Virus record (IMG/VR): IMGVR_UViG_2565956730_000004
DNA: 30,222 nt
Origin: a virus
Lineage: Duplodnaviria > Heunggongvirae > Uroviricota > Caudoviricetes
Reading direction: 5' to 3' (one strand)
This document shows positions 1 to 24,506 of the stretch, piece by piece. Numbering within the stretch: position 1 is the first letter of the stretch; each line of letters starts with the position of its first letter. The notes under the pieces were generated by a model. The model had not been told where the DNA came from. It searched no databases and saw only the letters and a program-made list of their open reading frames with translations. The translations under genes and the position numbers were made by a program.

Positions 1-546
1 GTGATTTTGTTGAGTGTGAAGGACCACCAGCACATTGATTCTGCCATTCCGGGACGTTACACTGTTCAGGCACCTTATAAAGCGGGTGCCGGGATTGGCG
101 TCCTGGAATTGCATACGGCGACAATTGGCGCGTTAGCGTCTTTTTTGTTGCTACAACTCAGCTATACCCAAATTATGGTGGGCTGGGTGGGGGCACCGAA
201 AGGTGCGCCGGTTTCCGTATGCGCCGGTTACGCCAACCCTGCTCAGTTCACCACCAGCGAAATTGGCGTTTCCGGTGGTGGAAGTTATCCATTGCATACG
301 GAGGCTGCCATCATGGCTACTGTTCCAGCCCTCACTCGTCTGAATGATGAAGACTTACATAAACTCAGTTATGTAACAACTGCACTACGTGCTCTGCGCA
401 AGGTAACTCTTTCGGATCCGCAGGCGCATCAGGTTTTGGTAGAAACCCTTCTTAACTTGCAGGCTGAACGTATTCGTCTGGCGGATAAGGCTAATTTTCA
501 TATTCACCGTCTCCTGAATATCAGCGGAGGGCATCGTCATGCTTAA
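1..546 (+). CDS. Hypothetical early-region protein; reading frame open to the window edge (5' end may lie upstream), alternative internal start at ATG 313 preceded by GGAGG
   Basis: Frame is stop-free from position 1 to TAA 544-546; RBS-like GGAGG about 9 nt upstream of ATG 313; stop overlaps the start of the next gene (ATGCTTAA). No family recognised. Confidence 0.4.
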   Translation: MILLSVKDHQHIDSAIPGRYTVQAPYKAGAGIGVLELHTATIGALASFLLLQLSYTQIMVGWVGAPKGAPVSVCAGYANPAQFTTSEIGVSGGGSYPLHTEAAIMATVPALTRLNDEDLHKLSYVTTALRALRKVTLSDPQAHQVLVETLLNLQAERIRLADKANFHIHRLLNISGGHRHA

Positions 547-4273: not shown

Positions 4274-5269
4274 GTGACCGTGAGAGCACTACTGACCCCT
4301 GAAATTGCCCCGCGTATGGGGATCGTATTGTTCAGACCCGGTTCAGAGCTGATGCCCCTGTTTATGCAGGGGCGTGTCCTGCTGGAGCCTGAGCCGGAAC
4401 GTTATTCATCTTTCGCCAGTGGTGCCGTTCCGGCGGCATCACAACCGCTGGCGGATGATCCTGCCGTTCGGGCCGTGTTCCGCAATGAGGCAGTGATCCG
4501 TCGTGCGGGTGGCGTGGAATGTCTTGAAAGCTGGTTACTTCGTGAAAAAGGCTGCCAGTGGCCTCATTCCGACTGGCACAGCGAGAACATGACCACAATG
4601 CGACACGCTCCGGGCGCAATCCGTCTGTGCTGGCACTGCGATAACCAGCTGCGCGATCAGTTCACGGAACGGCTGGAATCAATGGCAACGGATAACTGTG
4701 CCCGCTGGGTGTTGTCTGTTGTGCGTCGGGATCTCGGTTTTGATGACAGTCACGTTGTGACAATGCCGGAACTGTGCTGGTGGCTGGTTCGTAATGACCT
4801 GGCGGATGCCTTACCGGAAAGCGCAGCCCGTAAGGCACTGAGATTACCGAATCCTGTTGTGCCGTCTGTCACCCGGGAAAGTGACCTTGTGCCTTCGGTT
4901 CCTGCCACCAGCATCATCCAGGATAAGGCGAAAAAGGTGCTGGCGCTGAAAGTGGATCCGGAGTCGCCGGAGTCTTTTATGTTACGCCCAAAACGTCGCC
5001 GCTGGGTTAATGAAAAGTACACGCGCTGGGTTAAGACACAGCCGTGTGCATGTTGTGGAAAGCCTGCTGATGATCCCCACCACCTGATAGGTCACGGTCA
5101 GGGTGGAATGGGAACAAAAGCGCATGACCTTTTTGTGTTGCCTTTGTGCAGAAAGCATCACGACGAGCTGCATGCGGATACCGTGGCATTTGAAGAGAAG
5201 TATGGCTCCCAGCTGGAGCTGATATTTCGTTTTATCGATCGTGCGCTGGCAATTGGCGTATTGGCGTAA
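4274..5269 (+). CDS. DUF968-family phage protein with C-terminal Cys/His (HNH-like) motif
   Basis: GTG start at 4274 directly after the upstream stop; C-terminus has CACCGKPADDPHHLIGHG...CRKHHDELH. Architecture matches DUF968 (YdfU-like) proteins of lambdoid prophages, from memory. Confidence 0.65.
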   Translation: MTVRALLTPEIAPRMGIVLFRPGSELMPLFMQGRVLLEPEPERYSSFASGAVPAASQPLADDPAVRAVFRNEAVIRRAGGVECLESWLLREKGCQWPHSDWHSENMTTMRHAPGAIRLCWHCDNQLRDQFTERLESMATDNCARWVLSVVRRDLGFDDSHVVTMPELCWWLVRNDLADALPESAARKALRLPNPVVPSVTRESDLVPSVPATSIIQDKAKKVLALKVDPESPESFMLRPKRRRWVNEKYTRWVKTQPCACCGKPADDPHHLIGHGQGGMGTKAHDLFVLPLCRKHHDELHADTVAFEEKYGSQLELIFRFIDRALAIGVLA

Positions 5270-5282
5270 GTGGAGAACGAGC

Positions 5283-6035
5283 ATGAACCTTGAAGCCTTA
5301 CCAAAATATTACTCCCCAAAATCTCCAAAATTGAGCGATGACGCACCGGCGACAGGCTCGGGTGGTTTAACGATTACGGATGTGATGGCTGCGCAGGGGA
5401 TGGTGCAGTCGAAAGCACCGCTTGGATTTGCCTTATTCCTGGCAAAAGTTGGTGTTCAGGATCCTCAGTTTGCGATTGAAGGTCTGCTCAATTACGCGAT
5501 GGCACTGGATAACCCGACATTGAACAAATTGAGTGAAGAAACCCGGTTACAGATCATCCCTTACCTTGTGAATTTTGCCTTTGCTGATTATTCCAGGTCT
5601 GCGGCAAGTAAGGCTCGCTGTGAGCATTGTGCTGGTACTGGATTTCATAATGTATTGCGCGAAGTGGTGAAACACTCCAGAAGCGGGGAATCTGTTATCA
5701 AGGAAGAGTGGGTGAAGGAACTATGTCAGCATTGCCATGGTAAGGGAGAAGTCAGCACAGCGTGCAGAGGGTGTAAGGGTAAAGGTATTGTCCTGGATGA
5801 AAAAAGAACCCGGCTTCATGGTGTGCCTGTTTATAAGATTTGTGGGCGTTGCAATGGCAACCGGTTTAGCCGTTTACCAACCACACTGGCGCGGCATCAT
5901 GTCCAGAAACTGGTACCGGACCTGACGGATTATCAGTGGTACAAAGGATATGCAGACGTTATTAATAAACTGGTTACAAAGTGCTGGCAGGAAGAAGCGT
6001 ATGCTGAATCGCAATTGAGAAAAGTGACAAGATAG
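5283..6035 (+). CDS. Q-like late-gene antitermination protein
   Basis: RBS GGAGAA upstream of ATG 5283 (the longer ORF from 5241 lacks an RBS). Cys-rich zinc-binding motifs (CEHCAGTG, CQHCHGKG, CRGCKGKG, CGRCNG). Lies immediately upstream of a promoter/terminator pair and the lysis genes. Confidence 0.75.
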   Translation: MNLEALPKYYSPKSPKLSDDAPATGSGGLTITDVMAAQGMVQSKAPLGFALFLAKVGVQDPQFAIEGLLNYAMALDNPTLNKLSEETRLQIIPYLVNFAFADYSRSAASKARCEHCAGTGFHNVLREVVKHSRSGESVIKEEWVKELCQHCHGKGEVSTACRGCKGKGIVLDEKRTRLHGVPVYKICGRCNGNRFSRLPTTLARHHVQKLVPDLTDYQWYKGYADVINKLVTKCWQEEAYAESQLRKVTR

Positions 6036-6066
6036 ATAATTTTCGCCGAAGATGTCGACGTGATAC

Positions 6067-6095
6067 TTGCATTTTTCAAAAAATATGGATAAGAT
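6067..6095 (+). promoter_or_regulatory. Putative late promoter PR' (sigma70-like: -35 TTGCAT, 17-bp spacer, -10 TAAGAT)
   Basis: TTGCAT at 6067-6072 and TAAGAT at 6090-6095 with a 17-nt spacer, about 30 bp after the Q stop; position matches lambda PR'/qut. Confidence 0.4.
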
Positions 6096-6138
6096 TTTCT
6101 CAACGATGGGCCTTGTATGTCTACCGTTGGTAAATGTC

Positions 6139-6166
6139 AAAAACCCGCCACCGAGCGGTTTTTTAT
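6139..6166 (+). terminator. Putative tR'-like terminator (short GC stem between an A-tract and a T-tract)
   Basis: AAAAACCCGCCACCGAGCGGTTTTTTATT: a 4-bp GC stem (CCGC/GCGG) extendable by A:T pairs, followed by a U-run. Weak on its own; its position downstream of the putative PR' supports the call. Confidence 0.4.
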
Positions 6167-6323
6167 TGATGTCAATTGTGTTTTTAAGGCTCTCCTTCCT
6201 TAAAGTATGTTGTACAAAAAACTGGCAGCCAGCTACGCTCATTTTGAAAAAGTGACACCCTTCAATGTTTCTTTTGAATGGAATTGCTACCCATAAATCT
6301 CTATCAAAAACAGGAGAGCATAT

Positions 6324-6566
6324 ATGGTGGAGCGTTGTTCTGTTTGTGAGCAGTCATTAAGTTATTCACGAGAAGTTGAACAAGATGGCGTTGAATATAA
6401 ATCTTGCCCAAAATGTTCTGCTGATGCCGGAGTGCACGTTTTTTATAAAACAATAGACTTTGGTTATAGGGATATGGGAGACGGAAGGCATATCGTTCAG
6501 TCATGGTGTCCGGCTTGTCGTTCTGGTGAAAAACCGTCTATACCACCAGCATTTAAATGTTGTTAA
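6324..6566 (+). CDS. Small Cys-rich zinc-ribbon-like protein (80 aa) in the Q-to-holin slot
   Basis: Good RBS AGGAGAG 5 nt upstream of ATG 6324. Four CxxC-type pairs (CSVC, CPKC, CPAC, C-terminal CC). Visibly more AT-rich than flanking phage genes. Followed by a strong terminator. Confidence 0.55.
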   Translation: MVERCSVCEQSLSYSREVEQDGVEYKSCPKCSADAGVHVFYKTIDFGYRDMGDGRHIVQSWCPACRSGEKPSIPPAFKCC

Positions 6567-6584
6567 CTCAATGAATTATAAAAA

Positions 6585-6612
6585 GAGGCTGCCTGTGGGC
6601 GGCCTTTTTTGT
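6585..6612 (+). terminator. Rho-independent terminator after the zinc-ribbon ORF
   Basis: AGGCUGCC / GGCGGCCU stem (8 bp including one G-U), tetraloop UGUG, then UUUUUU. Confidence 0.7.
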
Positions 6613-6697
6613 GCACTACGCAACTTTTGCGACTCAGCGCTATAACCAGCTTCTTTCCCTTCACTCGTTGCACTTCCGATAACCGGAGGTGGGAATT

Positions 6698-7039
6698 ATG
6701 AAAATGCATAACGATCCTCATTCCTGGTCTGACTTACTTGAATTGTTACAGAGCTGGTGGCGTGGAGACACACCGCTGGGCGCAGTAATTATGTCGATCG
6801 TTATGGCTGGCTTGCGCATTGCCTATTTTGGCGGTGGTGGTGGTTGGAAGCGAAAAACGCTCGAGATTTTGCTCTGCGGCGCTCTGACGCTGACTTTTGC
6901 ATCCGCTCTTGAGTATGTCGGATGGCCTAAATCGCTTTCTGTTGCCATTGGTGGTGGCGTTGGGTTGATCGGTGTCGATGCTATTCGTGGGGCTGCAATG
7001 AGAGTAATCGGTAACAAGTTTGGTGGCTCTAAGGAGTAA
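6698..7039 (+). CDS. S: Holin, lambda S-like, with Met-Lys-Met dual-start motif
   Basis: RBS GGAGGTGGG upstream; begins MKMH.. like lambda S (MKMPEKHDLL..); hydrophobic helices; Gly-rich C-terminus (..AIRGAAMRVIGNKFGGSKE). Confidence 0.8.
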   Translation: MKMHNDPHSWSDLLELLQSWWRGDTPLGAVIMSIVMAGLRIAYFGGGGGWKRKTLEILLCGALTLTFASALEYVGWPKSLSVAIGGGVGLIGVDAIRGAAMRVIGNKFGGSKE

Positions 7040-17167: not shown

Positions 17168-17338
17168 ATGTTTGTGAAACCTGTTAAAGGGCGGTCAGTG
17201 CCTGACCCTGCCCGCGGCGACCTTTTGCCCGCCGAAGGGCGAAATGTTGACGAGAACAACTACTGGCTGCGCCGTGAAGCAGCGGGTGATATCCGGCGCG
17301 TGAATAAAAAGGTGAACACCGATGACGATAAGCTTTAA
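17168..17338 (+). CDS. DUF2635-like small protein (56 aa); not in the supplied ORF track because it is under 60 aa
   Basis: RBS TGAGGA 6 nt upstream of ATG 17168; translates to MFVKPVKGRSVPDPARGDLLPAEGRNVDENNYWLRREAAGDIRRVNKKVNTDDDKL; stop overlaps the sheath start. Confidence 0.6.
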   Translation: MFVKPVKGRSVPDPARGDLLPAEGRNVDENNYWLRREAAGDIRRVNKKVNTDDDKL

Positions 17339-18818
17339 CACCATTCCGTCGAATACGCTGGTTCCGCTGTTTTATGCGGAAATGGATAACCAGGCTGCGA
17401 ATACTGCACAGGACAGCGGAGCATCGCTGCTGATTGGTCATGCCAATAACGGTGCAGAGATTGTTGCCAACAGTCTGGTACTGATGCCGTCGGCAGACTA
17501 TGCACGCCAGATTTGTGGTGCGGGAAGTCAGCTGGCGCGTATGGTCGAGGCTTATCGCCAGACCGACCCGTTTGGCGAGCTGTATGTGATTGCCGTTCCT
17601 GAATCCACAGGCGCGGCGGCAACGGTTACGCTGACGGTGACCGGGGCGGCAACCGAAACCGGCACGGTGAATGTGTATGTGGGACGTACCCGCGTGCAGG
17701 CACCGGTGACTAACGGCGATAACGTCACGATGATTGCCAGCAGTATCCAGGATGCCATCAATGCCGTTCCGACCCTGCCGTTTACGGCTTCATCTTCGGC
17801 AGGCGTGGTCACACTGACCGCGCGTCATAAGGGGCTTTGCGGGAATGAAATTCCTGTCAGCCTCAATTACTACGGCTTTGGTGGGGGCGAAGTGCTGCCA
17901 GCGGGCGTACAGATTGCCGTGGCGACGGGTACCGCCGGAACGGGTGCTCCGGTTCTCACCGGCGCGGTGGCTGCAATGGCGGATGAGCCGTTTGATTATA
18001 TCGGCCTGCCGTTCAACGACACGGCCTCCGTTAACACGCTGGTGACCGAGATGAACGATACCAGCGGTCGCTGGAGCTATGCGCGTCAGCTGTATGGTCA
18101 TGTGTATACGGCAAAGATCGGCACGCTGTCAGAACTGGTGACCGCAGGTGACCAGTTTAACCAGCAGCACATTACCCTGGCGGGGTACGAAAAAGACACC
18201 CAGACGCCTGCCGACGAGCTGGCGGCAAGCCGTACCGCCCGCGCAGCGGTGTTTATCCGCAACGATCCGGCACGTCCCACGCAGACCGGTGAGCTGGTGG
18301 GTATGCTGCCTGCGCCGAAGGGGAAACGGTTCACGATGACAGAACAACAGACCCTGCTGTCTCATGGCGTGGCAACGGCGTATGTCGAAAGCGGGGTGCT
18401 GCGCATTCAGCGTGATGTCACCACGTACAGGGAAAATGCTTACGGGGTTGCGGATAACAGCTACCTCGACAGCGAGACGCTGCATACCAGTGCGTATGTA
18501 CTGCGCAAACTGAAATCCGTCATTACCAGTAAGTACGGGCGTCACAAGCTTGCCAGCGACGGTACCCGCTTTGGTCCCGGTCAGGCGATTGTCACCCCGG
18601 CGGTGATCAAAGGGGAACTGCTGGCAACCTACCGTCAGCTCGAGCGTGCGGGGATTGTGGAAAACTACGAACTTTTTAAGCAGTACCTGGTTGTGGAGCG
18701 TGATGCCAGCGATCCGAACCGCCTGAACACTCTGTTCCCGCCTGACTATGTTAACCAGTTGCGTGTCTTTGCCGTGGTTAACCAGTTCCGTCTTCAGTAT
18801 TCAGAGGAGTCCGCATAA
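17322..18818 (+). CDS. Contractile tail sheath protein (Mu gpL-like)
   Basis: 498 aa; RBS AAGGTGA; followed by tube, chaperone and tape measure genes in the canonical order. Confidence 0.85.
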   Translation: MTISFNTIPSNTLVPLFYAEMDNQAANTAQDSGASLLIGHANNGAEIVANSLVLMPSADYARQICGAGSQLARMVEAYRQTDPFGELYVIAVPESTGAAATVTLTVTGAATETGTVNVYVGRTRVQAPVTNGDNVTMIASSIQDAINAVPTLPFTASSSAGVVTLTARHKGLCGNEIPVSLNYYGFGGGEVLPAGVQIAVATGTAGTGAPVLTGAVAAMADEPFDYIGLPFNDTASVNTLVTEMNDTSGRWSYARQLYGHVYTAKIGTLSELVTAGDQFNQQHITLAGYEKDTQTPADELAASRTARAAVFIRNDPARPTQTGELVGMLPAPKGKRFTMTEQQTLLSHGVATAYVESGVLRIQRDVTTYRENAYGVADNSYLDSETLHTSAYVLRKLKSVITSKYGRHKLASDGTRFGPGQAIVTPAVIKGELLATYRQLERAGIVENYELFKQYLVVERDASDPNRLNTLFPPDYVNQLRVFAVVNQFRLQYSEESA

Positions 18819-19443: not shown

Positions 19444-19592
19444 CGGCTGAATACCTCACTGATCGCTTCTTTGACTGCGCCAGCTACTGGCGCATTAATC
19501 CCTTCGAATTGCTGAATATGCCGATCAGTGAAATTCCCTTGCTGGTCAGTCAGGCAAACAGGATAGAGCAGGAGAAACGCACACATGGCTGA
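19174..19592 (+). CDS. Tail assembly chaperone, extended product via programmed -1 frameshift (GT-like)
   Basis: Slippery T_TTT_TTC at 19425-19431; the -1 frame is open from there to TGA 19590-19592, which overlaps the tape measure start. Confidence 0.55.
19425..19431 (+). other. Putative -1 programmed ribosomal frameshift slippery heptamer (T TTT TTC)
   Basis: Zero frame reads GGT TTT TTC; fits the X_XXY_YYZ pattern; downstream -1 frame is open for about 54 codons. Confidence 0.55.
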
Positions 19593-21417
19593 ATTTGAGC
19601 TTAAGGCGTTGATCACCGGTGTCGACAGGCTTTCTCCCGCGCTGTCGAAAATGCAAAAGAAAATCCGGGGATTTAAACGCCAGGCGGAAGAAGCGTCACA
19701 GGGTGGGCTGGCGCTTGGTGGCGGACTGGCTGCGGGTCTGACGCTTTCCCTGAAATCTTATGCCGATCAGGAAAACGCCGCCACCGGGCTGAAAGTTGCC
19801 ATGATGGATGCGAACGGTGAGGTCGGAAAGCGCTTTCAGGACATCAATAAACTGGCTATTGGTCTGGGTAACCAGCTACCCGGTACAACGGCTGATTTCC
19901 AGAACATGATGCAGATGCTGGTGCGTCAGGGGATCCCGGCAGAAAACATTCTTGGCGGTGTGGGTAAAGCGACAGCTTATCTTGCGGTACAACTGAAAAA
20001 AACACCGGAAGCGGCTGCTGAGTTTGCTGCAAAGATGCAGGATGCTACCGGAACGGCGTCAGAAGACATGATGGGGCTGTTCGACACTATCCAGAAGGCG
20101 TTTTATCTGGGCGTTGACGATACCAACATGTTGTCCTTCTTCACTAAAACCAGTTCTGTTCTGAAGATGGTGAACAAGGACGGTCTTCAGGCTGCACAGA
20201 GCCTTGCCCCCATCAGCGTCATGATGGATCAGATGGGGATGAACGGGGAGTCGGCAGGTAATGCCCTGCGAAAAGTTATCCAGTCCGGATTAAGCGTTAA
20301 GAAAATCAGGGACGTCAATAAAGTCATGGCCCGCCAGAAACTCGGGGTACAGCTCGATTTTACTGACGGCAAAGGAAGTTTTGGCGGTCTTGATAACATG
20401 TTCAGGCAACTGGCAAAGCTGCGAAAACTGACCGACGTTAAGCGAACAGGTGTACTTAAGGCAATATTTGGTGATGATGCCGAAACCCTTCAGGTGGTTA
20501 ATGCACTAATCGATAAAGGAAAGGATGGCTACGATCAGATCCAGCAGAAGATGAATAAACAGGCCAGCCTGAATAAACGTGTTCAGGCCCAGCTTGGTAC
20601 GCTGTCCAACCTGTGGGAGGCAATGACGGGGACCGCAACTAACGGCCTTGCGGCTATTGGCGGCGCATTTTCTGGTGACGCCAAAAATATCACGCAATGG
20701 CTGGGGGAGTTAGGGGAAAAATTCACGAAGTTTGCGGATGAAAATCCCCGGGTTATTCGCGGCGTCGTCGGGCTTGCTGCCGGTCTTGCGATTCTGAAAC
20801 TGGGATTGATGGGCGTTGGCGGTGCCATCAGTATTGTCAGCAGGATCATGTCGATGACGCCGATTGGCATGATTGCGACGGCGATTGCTCTGGCTGCGGG
20901 ATTAATTATCACTAACTGGGATGTTGTCGGACCTTATTTCAAGAAGCTCTGGGAAACCATTGGTCCTTATTTTGAGGCAGGTTGGGAACTTCTGAAGAAG
21001 GTTTTTGCCTGGTCGCCGCTGGGGATGGTGATCAATAACTGGGGACCGGTTGTTAAGTGGTTTCAGGATATGTGGGACAAGCTGAAGCCAATTATTGAGT
21101 GGTTTACCGACAGTTCCGGTGACACGGTCGATGCCATTAACTCTGCGCAGTGGGGCGCGGGTGCTTATGATGCTTATGGGACGGGAATACCGGCGCGGGG
21201 ATACACACCTTATCCGGCGGTGGATCCGGCTCAGTCAAACAACGCCTCCGATGCCACAGGCTCGAATCCCTTCATGATTAACAAAGCTTCTGTGCCAAAA
21301 GTTGATGGTGAGATCAAGGTATCTTTTGTGAATTCGCCTCCGGGTATGCGGGTTATGGAAACGCGATCCAGCGGTTTTGATGTCAGCCATGATGTTGGCT
21401 ATACGCGGTTCAGGTAG
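19585..21417 (+). CDS. Tail tape measure protein
   Basis: 610 aa; Ala/Gly-rich alpha-helical N-terminal half and hydrophobic Gly-rich segments in the C-terminal half; RBS AGGAGA; canonical position. Confidence 0.85.
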   Translation: MAEFELKALITGVDRLSPALSKMQKKIRGFKRQAEEASQGGLALGGGLAAGLTLSLKSYADQENAATGLKVAMMDANGEVGKRFQDINKLAIGLGNQLPGTTADFQNMMQMLVRQGIPAENILGGVGKATAYLAVQLKKTPEAAAEFAAKMQDATGTASEDMMGLFDTIQKAFYLGVDDTNMLSFFTKTSSVLKMVNKDGLQAAQSLAPISVMMDQMGMNGESAGNALRKVIQSGLSVKKIRDVNKVMARQKLGVQLDFTDGKGSFGGLDNMFRQLAKLRKLTDVKRTGVLKAIFGDDAETLQVVNALIDKGKDGYDQIQQKMNKQASLNKRVQAQLGTLSNLWEAMTGTATNGLAAIGGAFSGDAKNITQWLGELGEKFTKFADENPRVIRGVVGLAAGLAILKLGLMGVGGAISIVSRIMSMTPIGMIATAIALAAGLIITNWDVVGPYFKKLWETIGPYFEAGWELLKKVFAWSPLGMVINNWGPVVKWFQDMWDKLKPIIEWFTDSSGDTVDAINSAQWGAGAYDAYGTGIPARGYTPYPAVDPAQSNNASDATGSNPFMINKASVPKVDGEIKVSFVNSPPGMRVMETRSSGFDVSHDVGYTRFR

Positions 21418-21516
21418 TGTACAAAATGATTAATGTGTTTTTGTCTGGCATAATTTGGGTTTTCAGCTTTAAGTAGTTAATATAATCATTCCTTACAAAT
21501 GATTGAAGGGATGATT

Positions 21517-22011
21517 ATGCGTATCTTTGTTTTTTTTATATCTGCACTTTTATCTTTTAACTTGGCTGCGGAAGAGTGTAAGTTCAGCTTTAATGAGTCA
21601 GAATTAATCTCTTCTATAGGTATTGCACCAGTTAAGCAAGAGATAATAAAGGATGAAGGAATAACTAAGCGGCAATATGAATTCAGAAGAGAATTATCTT
21701 CTGAAGAAATGCTTAGTGATGACGCTGATGAAAAATATGAGCCGCAGTTTTATATATCTGTTTATAATCCATCATGCCCACAAAAGGTTATTGTTTGGTT
21801 TTTCAAAGACAATAAAAACACAATGGATTTAAGTAATGAGGTCCTTGCTGGTAGAGCGTTCAAGTATTTAACTGGTGTTAATGAAAGTATTTTTGAAAAT
21901 AAAATGAAAAAGTTTTTAAAGGTACAGTCATTTGAATCTTTTGATGAAAGGACAGATTCTAAATTTATAAAGAGTGGTGATATTTATTCCATTGATGTTC
22001 AACTCAGATAG
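21517..22011 (+). CDS. AT-rich inserted gene: secreted/periplasmic protein of unknown function (165 aa) with N-terminal signal peptide
   Basis: RBS AAGGGA about 6 nt upstream of ATG 21517 (ORF opens at 21499). N-terminus MRIFVFFISALLSFNLAAEE is signal-peptide-like; two Cys in the mature part; Lys/Glu/Asn-rich AT-biased codons unlike neighbours; flanked by an AT-rich upstream region and a downstream terminator. Confidence 0.65.
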   Translation: MRIFVFFISALLSFNLAAEECKFSFNESELISSIGIAPVKQEIIKDEGITKRQYEFRRELSSEEMLSDDADEKYEPQFYISVYNPSCPQKVIVWFFKDNKNTMDLSNEVLAGRAFKYLTGVNESIFENKMKKFLKVQSFESFDERTDSKFIKSGDIYSIDVQLR

Positions 22012-22031
22012 TAATTAAAAATATTAGATTC

Positions 22032-22088
22032 CCGCCACATCTTCTGCGATGTAAATAACTGACAAAGCAGATTTGGCGGGTTTTTTGT
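22032..22088 (+). terminator. Terminator-like structure after the inserted gene
   Basis: CCCGCCA (22032-22038) pairs with TGGCGGG (22075-22081), followed by TTTTTTG; the interior holds a small CATC/GATG hairpin. Confidence 0.45.
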
Positions 22089-22101
22089 ATCCGGAGTTTA
22101 T

Positions 22102-23430
22102 ATGACGTGGAAAGACAGGCTTCAGGATGCGTCATTTCGCGGCGTACCGTTTAAGGTTGAAGAAGAAAGTGCGGGAACCGGTCGCCGTGTGGAAACACAC
22201 GAATATCCGAACCGCGACAAGCCCTATACCGAAGATCTGGGAAAAGTCACTTTCCGCCCGTCCATCACAGCTTATGTGGTGGGAGATGACTGCTTTGACC
22301 AGCGCGATCGCCTGATTGAAGCGCTGAATAAACCCGGTCCCGGCACGCTTGTCCACCCGACATATGGTGAGCTGAAAGTCTGTGTTGACGGGGAAGTTCG
22401 GGTCAGCACATCGAAAAGTGAAGGGCGTATTGTCCGCTTTGACCTGAAGTTTGTCGAAGCAGGAGAACTCTCTTACCCCACATCAGGTGCGGCGACGGCG
22501 CAGACGCTGATGTCATCCTGTTCTGCACTGGATGACTGCATCAGTGACAGCTTCAGCGGTTTCAGTATCGATGGTGTGGCGGATTTCGTGCAGAACGACG
22601 TTATCGGTAATGCCAGCATAATGCTGGGGTATGTTTCTGATGCGATGAAAGTGGTGGATTCTGCCGTATCGGATGCCGCCAGGCTGTTGCAGGGGGATAT
22701 CTCGGTACTTCTGCCGCCGCCATCGTCAGGCAAAAATTTCGTTGAGCAGGTGCAGAAAATGTGGCGTACCGGGAAACGCCTTTATGGTAACGCCAGCGAC
22801 CTGGTCACCATGATCAAAACGCTTTCCGGTGTCAGCCTCGGCAGCGATCTGCAACCGCGCGGCGTCTGGAAAACGGACAGTAAAACCACCGCCACGGCTA
22901 CGCAGCAGCGTAACGTGGTTGCCAGCACCCTTCGTACGACCGCAATCAGCGAAGCGGCGTATGCCGTCACCCGATTGCCTGCGCCAACAACTTCCGCGGT
23001 GATGCAGAATTCCGCAGTGGGGCAGGCAACAACACCCGCGCAGAGCACTGGCTGGCCTGCCGTCACGCATCCGGCACTGAACAATGCACCGGCGGTGAAA
23101 AACACGGTTGACCTGCCGACGTGGGAAGAACTGACTGACATTCGCGACACACTGAATACGGCAATTGATAAGGAGTTGTCCCGTACAACCAGTGATGCGC
23201 TGTTTCTGGCGCTGCGCCGGGTGAAAGCAGATCTGAATGCGGATATCAACACGCGCCTTGAACAGTCTGCACGGATCATTCAGCGCACACCGGATGAGGT
23301 TTTACCCGCGCTGGTGCTGGCGGCGACCTGGTTTGATAACGCGGCGCGTGACGCGGACATTATCCGGCGTAATGCCATTACGCATCCCGGCTTTGTGCCG
23401 GTGATCCCTCTGAAGGTGCCAGTGCAATGA
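22102..23430 (+). CDS. DNA circularization protein (Mu gpN-like)
   Basis: 442 aa; RBS GGAG; first gene after the tape measure region, as in Mu/SfV-type tail modules. Confidence 0.8.
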   Translation: MTWKDRLQDASFRGVPFKVEEESAGTGRRVETHEYPNRDKPYTEDLGKVTFRPSITAYVVGDDCFDQRDRLIEALNKPGPGTLVHPTYGELKVCVDGEVRVSTSKSEGRIVRFDLKFVEAGELSYPTSGAATAQTLMSSCSALDDCISDSFSGFSIDGVADFVQNDVIGNASIMLGYVSDAMKVVDSAVSDAARLLQGDISVLLPPPSSGKNFVEQVQKMWRTGKRLYGNASDLVTMIKTLSGVSLGSDLQPRGVWKTDSKTTATATQQRNVVASTLRTTAISEAAYAVTRLPAPTTSAVMQNSAVGQATTPAQSTGWPAVTHPALNNAPAVKNTVDLPTWEELTDIRDTLNTAIDKELSRTTSDALFLALRRVKADLNADINTRLEQSARIIQRTPDEVLPALVLAATWFDNAARDADIIRRNAITHPGFVPVIPLKVPVQ

Positions 23431-24506
23431 ACGACAATGTCACGCTACGGGTAAATGGCCGGGAGTGGAATGGCTGGACATCGGTGCGCATCGGTGCCGG
23501 TATTGAACGGCTGGCGCGGGATTTCAGTGTGGAGATCACTCGCCAGTGGCCAGGATATGAGGGTATCACCACGCTTCAGCCGCGCATTAAAAACGGTTCA
23601 AAAGTGGAAGTGCTGATTGGTGATGAGCTGGTGATCACCGGCTGGGTGGAGGCGACTCCCGTTCGTTACGATGCCCGTTCGGTCAGCACCGGTATTGCCG
23701 GACGTAGTCTGACGGCTGACCTGATTGACTGTGCAGCCGAACCGACACAGTTTAACGGACGCTCGCTGGTGCAGATTGCGCAGGCGCTTGCTGCGCCTTT
23801 CGGCATTGAGGTGGTGAACAGCGGTGCGCCATCGGGTGTTATTCCTGATGTTCAGCCTGATCACGGTGAAACGGTGATTGAGGTAATCAACAAAATACTC
23901 GGTCAGCAGCAGGCGCTGGCTTACGACGACCCGCACGGCAGGCTGGTGATTGGCGGTATTGGCTCAACGCGGGCACATACCGCGCTGGTACTCGGGGAAA
24001 ACATCCTTTCCTGCGATACGGAGAAGAGTATCCGGGAGCGGTTTTCTGTTTACCAGGTGGCGGGGCAGCGTGCCGGAAACGACGATGATTTCGGTGAGGC
24101 CACCACCACCGCGCTGCGGGCCCGCACAGAGGACGCATTTATTGCCCGTTACCGTCCGATGTATATCAGGCAGACAGGGCAGGCTACGGGGGCAGGCTGT
24201 ATTGCGCGTGCTGACTTTGAAGCCCGACAACGGGCGGCGCGGACGGATGAAACCACCTATGTGGTGCAGGGCTGGCGACAGGGTAACGGTACGCTGTGGC
24301 AGCCCAACCAGCGGGTGATTGTCTTCGATCCGGTCTGTGGTTTCGACAATACCGAACTGCTTGTCTCGGAAGTCACGTTTACTCAGGACCAGAACGGCAC
24401 CCTGACGGAAATCCGTGTCGGCCCACCTGATGCTTATCTGCCTGAACCCGAAGCCCCCGGCGCGCGGAAAAAGAAAAAAGCCAGAGTACAGGAGGACCCG
24501 TTCTGA
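23427..24506 (+). CDS. Baseplate hub / tail protein (Mu gpP-like)
   Basis: 359 aa; ATGA-coupled; canonical position. Confidence 0.8.
   Translation: MNDNVTLRVNGREWNGWTSVRIGAGIERLARDFSVEITRQWPGYEGITTLQPRIKNGSKVEVLIGDELVITGWVEATPVRYDARSVSTGIAGRSLTADLIDCAAEPTQFNGRSLVQIAQALAAPFGIEVVNSGAPSGVIPDVQPDHGETVIEVINKILGQQQALAYDDPHGRLVIGGIGSTRAHTALVLGENILSCDTEKSIRERFSVYQVAGQRAGNDDDFGEATTTALRARTEDAFIARYRPMYIRQTGQATGAGCIARADFEARQRAARTDETTYVVQGWRQGNGTLWQPNQRVIVFDPVCGFDNTELLVSEVTFTQDQNGTLTEIRVGPPDAYLPEPEAPGARKKKKARVQEDPF

What the first reader, a model, noticed from the sequence alone, without database searches (positions are those of the whole stretch)
21418..22101. AT-rich insert encoding a secreted 165-aa protein between tape measure and baseplate genes (top candidate for undescribed function)
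A clearly foreign, AT-rich island interrupts the otherwise tightly coupled tail operon. It contains an AT-rich upstream region with -10-like hexamers (TATAAT at 21481-21486, CATAAT at 21449-21454), an ORF with RBS whose product has a classical signal peptide (MRIFVFFISALLSFNLAAEE) and a Lys/Glu-rich mature domain with two Cys, and a downstream terminator-like structure. A periplasmic or secreted protein is not needed for virion assembly; such cargo typically encodes lysogenic-conversion functions such as superinfection exclusion or host-fitness factors. I recognise no family from the sequence.
Basis: partly seen in the sequence, partly recalled or inferred. Interest (0 to 1): 0.65.

Follow-up and report, generated by a model that had tools for sequence, protein, structure and literature searches.

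The report
Secreted cargo protein in prophage tail operon
An SfV-like E. coli prophage carries, in a swappable slot between its tail tape-measure gene and its baseplate genes, a real but uncharacterised gene for a small exported (periplasmic) protein that the virus does not need to build particles and that most likely protects the host cell envelope against other phages, though this is untested.

Summary
Window 21418-22101 is 31% GC against 52-56% in the flanks. It contains one ORF (21517-22011, 164 aa, not 165) between the tape-measure gene and the Mu gp43-like DNA-circulation gene of an SfV-like prophage. The ORF is a real gene: dN/dS is about 0.2, and relatives share 27-66% identity. All relatives but one have a signal peptide with a signal-peptidase-I site and two conserved cysteines, which points to a soluble periplasmic protein.

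It is dispensable cargo. SfV, SfII, SfI and about half of E. coli prophages with flanks about 95-97% identical have only a 60-bp spacer there. Others carry one of four unrelated genes, three with membrane or lipoprotein signals, and one matches a PHROG named "Sie-like".

- The terminator hairpin belongs to the phage backbone and is present in empty slots too.
- The promoter is not supported: it is no better than shuffles, it is not conserved, and distant relatives start 15-17 nt after the tape-measure stop.

The family is also not recently foreign. Every informative phage copy sits in this same slot, and its divergence tracks that of the tail genes.

The parts
19585..21417 (+). Tail tape-measure gene (610 aa); left border of the cargo slot
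   Evidence: PF10145 PhageMin_Tail, E 5e-27. Annotated as tape measure protein Mup42 in phage SKA5.
21418..21516 (+). 99-nt AT-rich upstream spacer. It holds promoter-like hexamers (extended -10 TGgCATAAT 21446-21454; TATAAT 21481-21486) and the RBS-like GAAGGG at 21505-21510.
   Evidence: Sequence. The promoter-like sites are not above chance and are not conserved among homologous loci.
21517..21573 (+). Predicted Sec signal peptide (aa 1-19, MRIFVFFISALLSFNLAA), with inferred signal-peptidase-I cleavage before EEC
   Evidence: The n/h/c organisation, with A at -1 and L/V/S/A/I at -3, recurs across the family with few exceptions. The only strongly hydrophobic stretch is at the N-terminus. There is no lipobox. 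AF2 pLDDT is about 50 over residues 1-20 and below 50 for 11-18. SignalP was not run.
21574..22011 (+). Mature domain (145 aa, 17 kDa, pI 4.95) with conserved C21 and C87, plus the stop codon. It is a member of PHROG 8976 (unknown function).
   Evidence: phrog_8976, E 2.8e-107. There are 39 invariant columns among 13 relatives at 55-66% identity. dN/dS is about 0.2. The AF2 model has pLDDT 88 and pTM 0.80 and is a mixed alpha/beta fold.
22031..22086 (+). Intrinsic-terminator-like hairpin (CCCGCCA...TGGCGGG, here with a 36-nt expanded loop) plus a T6 run. It is a backbone element of the slot, not part of the cargo.
   Evidence: RNA fold -24.5 kcal/mol, z = -3.5. The homologous hairpin is present in empty slots and behind other cargo. 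SfII's record annotates it as a putative rho-independent terminator. In the 11-sequence alignment 97% of cells are paired and 3 of 6 pairs show compensatory change.
22093..23430 (+). RBS (GGAG 22093-22096) and the Mu gp43-like DNA-circulation/baseplate gene (442 aa); right border of the slot
   Evidence: PF07157 DNA_circ_N, E 3.7e-34. The motif CGGAG-N-ATG after the hairpin is conserved in almost every locus examined.
5241..6035 (+). Q-type antiterminator gene (context). It predicts that late transcripts read through the slot's terminator during lytic growth.
   Evidence: PF03589 Antiterm, E 7e-54. The read-through itself is inferred from established lambda Q biology and was not tested here.

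Best explanation
The island is the occupied state of a cargo ('moron') slot that SfV-like temperate phages keep between the tape-measure gene and the gp43-like DNA-circulation gene. These phages have an HK97-type head and a Mu-type contractile tail.

Shown:
- The slot has a fixed right border, a conserved terminator hairpin followed by the RBS of the next gene.
- The slot can be empty or hold one of at least five unrelated small genes.
- This occupant is a genuine gene under purifying selection, and plaque-forming relatives lack it.

Inferred from sequence:
- The product is exported by Sec, cleaved by signal peptidase I and disulfide-bonded (C21-C87).
- It acts as a soluble 17-kDa acidic protein in the periplasm of the lysogen or infected cell, not in the virion.

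Inferred mechanism (lowest certainty): it acts as a superinfection-exclusion factor. It would intercept an incoming phage at the periplasmic stage of genome delivery, for example by binding an ejected tape-measure or tail-tip protein or a periplasmic or inner-membrane entry factor. This would be analogous in logic to HK97 gp15, T4 Sp and Ltp.

Transcription probably comes from Q-antiterminated late read-through during lytic growth, and perhaps from a weak promoter in the lysogen. The resident hairpin would stop any such prophage-state transcript before the baseplate genes.

The confidence of 0.6 is for 'dispensable, exported periplasmic accessory protein occupying a cargo hotspot'. For superinfection exclusion specifically, my estimate is about 0.3.
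For: Composition and anatomy.

The gene is real:
- 39 invariant columns in 13 relatives.
- dS 0.147 against dN 0.029 versus the E. coli variant loci L031/L032.
- phrog_8976.

The product is exported:
- A conserved signal peptide and cleavage motif in nearly all members, with C21 and C87 conserved.

The gene is dispensable and the slot is polymorphic:
- The junction flanks occur in 863 of 5,426 complete E. coli genomes at full coverage.
- In an evenly spaced sample, 29 of 47 complete junctions are empty, with a 60-bp spacer.
- SfV, SfII, SfI and vB_EcoM-689R6 have empty slots with flanks about 96% identical.
- This gene is found in 85 genomes.
- Alternative cargo: a 176-aa TM protein in 178 genomes, an OB-fold/TM protein in 79, a 225-aa lipoprotein in 55 and bPH_1 in 28.

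Slot theme:
- The OB-fold alternative matches phrog_8545, 'superinfection exclusion Sie-like', E 1.5e-49.
- Four of the five cargo types carry export or membrane signals.

Positional conservation:
- All phage-borne relatives sit in the same slot in Kosakonia, Atlantibacter, Kluyvera, Yersinia, Pantoea phage AH07 and metagenomes.
- 43 of 45 IMG/VR loci are syntenic, and the other 2 are cut by contig ends.

Backbone terminator.

Q antiterminator in the same phage.

Precedent: the HK97 gp15 moron lies next to the tape-measure gene and excludes phages in a tail-dependent manner (PMC3594210).
Against: - There is no experimental or expression data of any kind.
- The gene matches no known exclusion, defence, immunity or inhibitor family by sequence. 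Pfam, NCBIfam and PADLOC gave nothing.
- An own promoter is not demonstrable. In distant relatives the gene abuts the tape-measure gene. This fits late, lytic-cycle expression at least as well as prophage-state expression.
- The 'Sie-like' label on the alternative cargo is a database annotation, not a tested function.
- One alternative cargo, bPH_1, has no export signal, so the slot is not exclusively envelope-directed.
Confidence: 0.6

Rival explanations
1. Lytic-cycle accessory factor. The gene is an integrated member of the late tail transcript. Its periplasmic product acts late in infection, for example by blocking secondary adsorption or injection into the already infected cell, limiting loss of progeny on debris, or modulating lysis timing. 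It would not be a lysogenic-conversion gene. This overlaps with the best explanation in where the protein acts but differs in when and for whom it acts.
For: - In L011, L015 (Pantoea phage AH07), L022 and L012 the gene starts 15-17 nt after the tape-measure stop, or overlaps it, and has its own RBS.
- No conserved or significant promoter was found in the longer spacers.
- The gene is co-oriented with the operon.
- A Q antiterminator would carry late transcription through it.
- Its divergence tracks the tail genes.
Against: - The gene is freely lost or replaced in viable phages.
- It keeps a strongly deviant, AT-rich composition in all lineages.
- A slot-mate lies on the opposite strand and so must be independently transcribed.
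- The TATAAT-like hexamers inside the tape-measure 3' end of distant relatives could still act as promoters.
Confidence: 0.2
2. Host-fitness or virulence cargo unrelated to phages. The periplasmic protein would alter envelope physiology, for example stress tolerance, resistance to lysozyme, colicins or T6SS effectors, or host colonisation, in the way lambda Bor and Lom do.
For: - The product is exported, and the gene is prophage cargo with deviant composition.
- Carrier strains come from diverse hosts (APEC, UPEC, mouse, chicken, cattle), with no phage-specific pattern visible.
- Morons are known to encode such functions (PMC3594210).
Against: - There is no similarity to Bor, Lom, lysozyme inhibitors or solved T6SS immunity proteins by sequence or fold.
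- The family is confined to one slot of one phage tail module and co-diverges with it. This suggests a phage-linked rather than a host-general role.
- The family is very rare: 12 representatives among 1.84 billion proteins.
Confidence: 0.12
3. Tail or baseplate assembly or structural component, such as a chaperone, specific to this tail type.
For: The position is strictly conserved between the tape-measure and baseplate genes, and the gene is co-oriented and co-diverging with them.
Against: - The signal peptide would remove the protein from the cytoplasm, where tails assemble.
- The gene is absent from SfV, SfII, SfI and most E. coli prophages that have about 96% identical neighbouring genes.
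- It is replaced by unrelated genes, one of them on the opposite strand.
- Its GC content is 20 points below that of the operon.
Confidence: 0.04
4. Not a functional gene: a chance ORF or a decaying remnant in an AT-rich spacer.
For: - The gene has no annotated function anywhere.
- One IMG/VR copy (L074) appears truncated.
- One chromosomal paralogue (P0023) lacks the signal peptide.
Against: - Full-length relatives exist down to 27% identity with conserved motifs and cysteines.
- dN/dS is about 0.2.
- The AF2 model is confident, with pLDDT 88 and pTM 0.80.
- The 90%-identity cluster has 764 member sequences.
Confidence: 0.02

Closest known systems
HK97 gp15 moron (superinfection exclusion; Cumby et al. 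2012, reviewed in PMC3594210)
   Same: Both are small accessory genes of deviant composition inserted in the tail operon directly beside the tape-measure gene of a temperate enterobacterial phage. Both products are envelope-targeted. Both are absent from close relatives. gp15 blocks genome entry in a tail-dependent way.
   Different: gp15 is a small inner-membrane protein related to YebO, with a documented promoter and terminator and prophage expression. This protein is a 145-aa soluble periplasmic domain with no sequence similarity to it. It lies on the other side of the tape-measure gene and has no demonstrated promoter. The terminator it uses belongs to the backbone. The phage has a contractile Mu-type tail, not a siphovirus tail.
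T4 Sp (spackle) and Streptococcus phage TP-J34 Ltp
   Same: Both are phage-encoded proteins exported beyond the cytoplasmic membrane that stop incoming phages during envelope penetration or DNA injection. The comparison is from my own knowledge, with Ltp also described in the abstract of PMC3952083.
   Different: There is no sequence or fold relationship. Ltp is a lipoprotein, whereas this protein has no lipobox. Sp inhibits the gp5 lysozyme, and no lysozyme domain was found here in the tape measure, where Pfam detected only PF10145.
PHROG 8976 (unknown function)
   Same: Full-length match, E 2.8e-107, positions 1-164 of 164. This is the family the protein belongs to.
   Different: The family has no described function, so membership adds no mechanism.
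Variable cargo hotspots of temperate phages (lambdoid morons, Juhala et al. 2000; P2/P4 defence hotspots, from my own knowledge)
   Same: Conserved flanking genes bracket a short interval that holds alternative, unrelated, AT-rich small genes in otherwise near-identical phages. One alternative here is labelled Sie-like.
   Different: I found no description of this particular hotspot, the tape-measure/gp43 junction of SfV-like phages. The SfIV paper discusses only a moron between Q and the lysis genes. The right border here is a conserved terminator hairpin that persists when the slot is empty.
BFVD model A0A8S5RVB8 (180-aa protein of an uncultured gut siphovirus)
   Same: This is the only significant structural match: Foldseek E 7e-6, TM 0.63/0.58 over 153 columns. 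The fold therefore probably recurs in other phages.
   Different: Identity is 13%. Its name, 'ABC transporter periplasmic binding protein', is an automatic label for a 180-aa protein and was not verified. I could not retrieve its sequence or context.

Membership tests
Moron (Juhala/Hendrix sense) | Extra gene present between genes that are adjacent in related phages | tested here: met
   Empty 60-bp junctions occur in SfV, SfII, SfI, O157:H7 and 29 of 47 sampled E. coli junctions, with flanks about 95-97% identical.
Moron (Juhala/Hendrix sense) | Nucleotide composition deviating from the neighbours | tested here: met
   31% GC against 52-56%. The same offset is seen in all homologous loci, 31-40% against 47-57%.
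Moron (Juhala/Hendrix sense) | Own promoter | tested here: inconclusive
   The consensus scan found 0 sites. The best extended -10 candidate is matched or beaten by 10.5% of shuffles, is not conserved, and distant relatives have no spacer to hold one.
Moron (Juhala/Hendrix sense) | Own terminator | tested here: inconclusive
   A strong hairpin plus T-run follows the gene, but the same element is present in empty slots, so it is a backbone feature shared by all cargo.
Moron (Juhala/Hendrix sense) | Expression from the repressed prophage | not testable with these tools
   Needs RNA-seq or a reporter assay in a lysogen.
Sec/signal-peptidase-I exported soluble protein | Positively charged n-region, hydrophobic h-region of 10-15 residues, and a c-region with small residues at -1 and -3 | tested here: met
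   MR + IFVFFISALLSF + NLAA|EEC. The pattern is kept in nearly all family members examined, with A (once S) at -1 and V/S/A/L/I at -3. There is no second hydrophobic segment. This was inspected by hand; SignalP was not available.
Bacterial lipoprotein | Lipobox [LVI][ASTVI][GAS]C with Cys at +1 | tested here: not met
   The first Cys is two residues beyond the predicted cleavage site (LAA|EEC) in the window and its close relatives.
Known superinfection-exclusion or anti-phage defence proteins | Sequence homology to a described family | tested here: not met
   PADLOC gave 0 hits at E up to 10. Pfam and NCBIfam gave 0 hits. The PHROG hit is to an unknown-function family only.
Known superinfection-exclusion or anti-phage defence proteins | Exclusion phenotype against a superinfecting phage | not testable with these tools
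   Needs efficiency-of-plating assays.
Periplasmic lysozyme inhibitors (Ivy, PliC/MliC, PliG) and solved T6SS immunity proteins | Fold similarity to solved members | tested here: not met
Mu-type tail or baseplate structural proteins | Present in all phages with this tail module, and cytoplasmic | tested here: not met
   The gene is absent from SfV, SfII and SfI and carries a signal peptide.
PHROG 8976 | Full-length profile match | tested here: met
   E 2.8e-107, positions 1-164 of 164.

The most novel reading that the evidence does not exclude
The protein founds a new family of soluble periplasmic superinfection-exclusion factors directed at contractile Mu-type tails. It would work by binding the ejected tape-measure or tail-tip complex, or a periplasmic entry factor, and would co-evolve with the adjacent tape-measure gene. 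In this reading, the tape-measure/gp43 junction of SfV-like prophages is a previously undescribed exclusion or defence hotspot. Its interchangeable cargo, delimited by a conserved terminator, consists mostly of envelope-targeted genes: this protein, a TM protein, a lipoprotein, an OB-fold 'Sie-like' protein and a bPH protein.
Probability: 0.25. Interest if true: 0.6.

Novelty: new member of a known kind. Interest (0 to 1): 0.4.

Why it matters
Exclusion genes carried by prophages decide which phages can infect about a fifth of sequenced E. coli strains that carry SfV-like prophages. That matters for phage therapy and for the spread of the serotype-converting phages of Shigella.

This locus offers three things:
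- An uncharacterised exported protein with a confidently predicted fold and no solved relative.
- A cleanly delimited cargo slot with at least five alternative occupants in near-isogenic backgrounds. This makes a natural swap panel for testing envelope-level anti-phage functions.
- A conserved terminator inside a tail operon whose role, whether setting tail-to-baseplate stoichiometry or insulating cargo transcripts, could be tested.

If the protein has no phage-related phenotype, the finding reduces to one more hypothetical moron.

Tried and rejected
Family and homology searches:
- Pfam, NCBIfam and PADLOC scans of the protein gave no hits even at lax thresholds.
- An exhaustive profile search of 1.84 billion representatives found only 12 family members, none annotated.
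- A second word-indexed search with a broader alignment added only Yersinia 'hypothetical proteins'.
- A profile search against PDB sequences gave only noise.

Fold searches:
- Foldseek against the PDB gave nothing at E below 0.001.
- BFVD gave one unnamed-quality hit.
- afdb50 was unavailable, so the AlphaFold database was not searched.
- The weak DcrB and RseB rows in Foldseek (TM 0.2-0.3) were considered and rejected as insignificant.

Other checks:
- Lipoprotein was rejected because there is no lipobox.
- Tail chaperone or structural protein was rejected because of the signal peptide and the absence from SfV, SfII and SfI.
- A known RNA element in the island was ruled out: Rfam found only isrK and C4, at the window start.
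- The broad alignment A2 was too divergent for the locus finder.
- The genome-contig scan returned only Kluyvera and Atlantibacter.
- Literature searches for the accession, for phages SKA5 and AH07, and for a described hotspot at this junction found nothing specific.
- I tested whether the putative promoter is conserved across homologous loci; it is not.
Full report
**1. What is in the sequence**

The window is a temperate enterobacterial phage genome. It carries the following genes:
- a Dam methylase, a KilA-N protein and a Q antiterminator (5241-6035);
- a holin (6689-7039) and an Rz protein;
- a Rha protein, an HNH endonuclease and the terminase genes;
- HK97-type head genes;
- a Mu-type contractile tail: sheath 17322-18818, tube, chaperone, tape measure 19585-21417, gp43-like DNA-circulation protein 22102-23430, gp44-like hub 23427-24506, then gp45-48 homologues and a tail fibre.

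By DNA identity it belongs to the SfV group. The junction flanks are about 96% identical to SfV, SfII and SfI and 98.7% identical to Escherichia phage SKA5.

Between the tape-measure stop (21417) and the gp43-like start (22102) lie 684 nt of 31.4% GC. The flanks are 52-56% GC.

The only substantial ORF in that interval is 21517-22011 on the + strand. It encodes 164 aa (MRIFVFF...), and GAAGGG lies 6 nt upstream. RefSeq annotates the same start, as WP_001219113.1, 'hypothetical protein'. The length is 164 aa, not 165.

**2. It is a real gene for an exported protein**

Thirteen relatives at 55-66% identity share 39 invariant columns. More distant members at 27-42% identity keep the core motifs.

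Against E. coli variants about 4% divergent in DNA, dS is 0.147 and dN is 0.029. The gene is therefore under purifying selection.

Nearly all members have the same N-terminal layout:
- an N-terminal basic residue;
- a hydrophobic stretch of 12-15 residues;
- a c-region ending in A (once S), with V, S, A, L or I at -3;
- an acidic or polar dipeptide, followed by a conserved Cys.

The exception is one chromosomal paralogue, P0023. No lipobox is present and there is no second hydrophobic segment.

The second conserved Cys (C87) implies a disulfide. That fits an oxidising periplasm, though this step is inference. The mature protein is 145 aa, 17 kDa, with pI 4.95.

AlphaFold2 with the family alignment gives a confident model, pLDDT 88 and pTM 0.80. 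It has a seven-stranded antiparallel sheet with two long helices and a disordered N-terminal 20 residues.

**3. It has no characterised relatives**

- Pfam, NCBIfam and PADLOC gave nothing.
- PHROGs places it in phrog_8976, function unknown.
- An exhaustive HMM search of 1.84 billion representative proteins found 12 members.
- A broader profile search added only Yersinia hypothetical proteins.
- Foldseek against the PDB found nothing significant.
- BFVD gave one match, TM 0.63 and E 7e-6, to an uncharacterised gut-phage protein.
- The AlphaFold database could not be searched.

**4. Comparative genomics: a cargo slot**

I built a query from 500 nt of the tape-measure 3' end joined to 500 nt of the gp43 5' end. 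It matches 863 of 5,426 complete E. coli genomes at full coverage.

In an evenly spaced sample of the ranking, 29 of 47 complete junctions span 1,063 nt. That corresponds to a 60-nt spacer with no gene, as in SfV, SfII, SfI and O157:H7.

The rest carry one of these cargo types:

| Cargo | Genomes |
|---|---|
| This 164-aa gene | 85 |
| 176-aa protein with an N-terminal TM segment | 178 |
| 148-aa TM-anchored OB-fold protein on the opposite strand | 79 |
| 225-aa lipoprotein (LLGGC lipobox) | 55 |
| 125-aa bPH_1 protein, also in Edwardsiella phage EPP-1 | 28 |

All are AT-rich, at 34-42% GC. None matches PADLOC. The OB-fold protein matches phrog_8545, 'superinfection exclusion Sie-like', at E 1.5e-49.

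The gene is therefore dispensable for making phage. It sits in a recombinational hotspot whose occupants are mostly envelope-directed.

**5. The terminator belongs to the slot, not to the gene**

A GC-rich hairpin, a T-run and then (C)CGGAG-N-ATG of gp43 are present in three settings:
- empty slots;
- slots holding each same-strand cargo type;
- loci from Kosakonia, Atlantibacter, Yersinia, Pantoea and Edwardsiella.

SfII's GenBank record annotates it as a putative rho-independent terminator. Across 11 loci, 97% of cells pair and 3 of 6 stem pairs show compensatory changes. This exceeds every shuffle and every slid register.

In the window the stem (22031-22037 with 22074-22080) encloses a 36-nt expanded loop. 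It still folds at -24.5 kcal/mol, z = -3.5.

Because the phage encodes a Q antiterminator, late transcription is expected to read through this hairpin. That expectation rests on established lambda biology and is an inference here. A transcript starting inside the slot would instead stop before the baseplate genes.

**6. Not a recent foreign arrival**

Every phage-borne family member I could place lies in this same slot. Of 45 IMG/VR loci, 43 are syntenic and the other 2 are cut by contig ends.

Identity to the window copy falls in step with the flanking proteins:

| Loci | Tape measure | This ORF | gp43 |
|---|---|---|---|
| L002, L004, L007 | about 77% | about 60% | about 74% |
| L011, L012, L015 | 56-60% | 35-40% | 52-57% |
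| L022 | 58% | 27% | 43% |

The family has thus descended with this tail module while evolving faster. It has kept its low GC throughout.

Within E. coli, presence, absence and swapping at about 96% flank identity indicate exchange by homologous recombination through the conserved flanks.

**7. Expression signals are unresolved**

The sigma-70 scan finds nothing in the island. The best candidate, TGgCATAAT at 21446-21454, is matched or beaten by 10.5% of shuffles. Candidates are not conserved among the close relatives, which have spacers of 72-134 nt.

In the distant relatives the gene begins 15-17 nt after the tape-measure stop. This argues for co-transcription with late genes as the ancestral arrangement.

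Two other cargo types do carry good extended -10 promoters, and one is on the opposite strand. Independent transcription therefore occurs in this slot, but it is not shown for this gene.

**8. Interpretation**

The shown facts support a dispensable accessory gene for a secreted periplasmic protein in a tail-operon cargo hotspot.

The function is inferred only from three lines of reasoning:
- Location: the protein acts in the periplasm, the compartment an incoming tail must cross.
- Neighbours: the slot-mates are mostly envelope-targeted and one is labelled Sie-like.
- Precedent: HK97 gp15, a moron beside the tape-measure gene, blocks genome entry in a tail-dependent way (PMC3594210).

I therefore favour superinfection exclusion at the periplasmic step, with an estimate of about 0.3. 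A lytic-cycle role (0.2) and a phage-unrelated host-fitness role (about 0.12) remain open. A structural role and a non-gene are effectively excluded.

**9. Verdict**

This is a new, uncharacterised member of a well-known kind, the tail-operon moron, so interest is moderate. The added value is the definition of the slot, its conserved terminator border and its set of alternative cargo. Together these make a compact experimental system.

Noticed in passing
window 70-146 and 171-258 (+): Rfam matches above gathering score to the isrK Hfq-binding RNA (RF01394, 61 bits) and the C4 antisense RNA (RF01695, 81 bits). This is a P1/P7-type antirepressor-control module at the start of the window.
   Followed up: no
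window 6036-6688: The gap between Q and the holin is AT-rich (38-40% GC). It holds a hairpin plus T-run at about 6145-6166, then an 80-aa ORF (6324-6566) with three CxxC pairs (phrog_7682, unknown function), then its own hairpin plus T-run at about 6577-6610. This is a second moron-like unit at the position where Stx phages carry stx, and where the SfIV paper describes a moron.
   Followed up: partly
L016-L021, L029, L030 (E. coli, SfII and Edwardsiella junction loci): The tape-measure/gp43 junction is a cargo hotspot. It is either empty or holds one of five unrelated genes. The OB-fold cargo lies on the minus strand, lacks the right-hand hairpin and instead has a GC-rich hairpin immediately after the tape-measure stop.
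   Followed up: yes
L025 8001-8471 and L026 6657-7127: P0023 is a paralogue about 32% identical that lacks the signal peptide and the first cysteine. It lies 60 nt downstream of a 1,079-aa pertactin-type autotransporter in a non-phage chromosomal context, after that gene's terminator and with its own RBS. It is the only family member found outside the phage slot.
   Followed up: partly
L008 9980-11778 (Atlantibacter prophage): Two extra genes (506 aa and 93 aa, no Pfam hits) are inserted between the gp43-like and gp44-like genes. This suggests a second variable site in the baseplate operon.
   Followed up: no
L074 (IMGVR_UViG_2541047957_000005) 2501-2960: This copy of the gene aligns only partway, to about residue 104 in one frame, and the locus is 32 nt shorter. 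It is possibly a frameshifted or internally deleted allele.
   Followed up: no
window 22038-22073: The slot's terminator has a 4-8-nt loop in the other hairpin-bearing loci examined. In this E. coli lineage it has a 36-nt loop expansion with its own internal CUGC/GCAG stem, and the origin of this expansion is unexplained.
   Followed up: partly
L002 14691-16378 (Kosakonia prophage): A umuD/umuC-like pair (Peptidase_S24 + IMS) follows the tail-fibre genes as prophage-end cargo.
   Followed up: no
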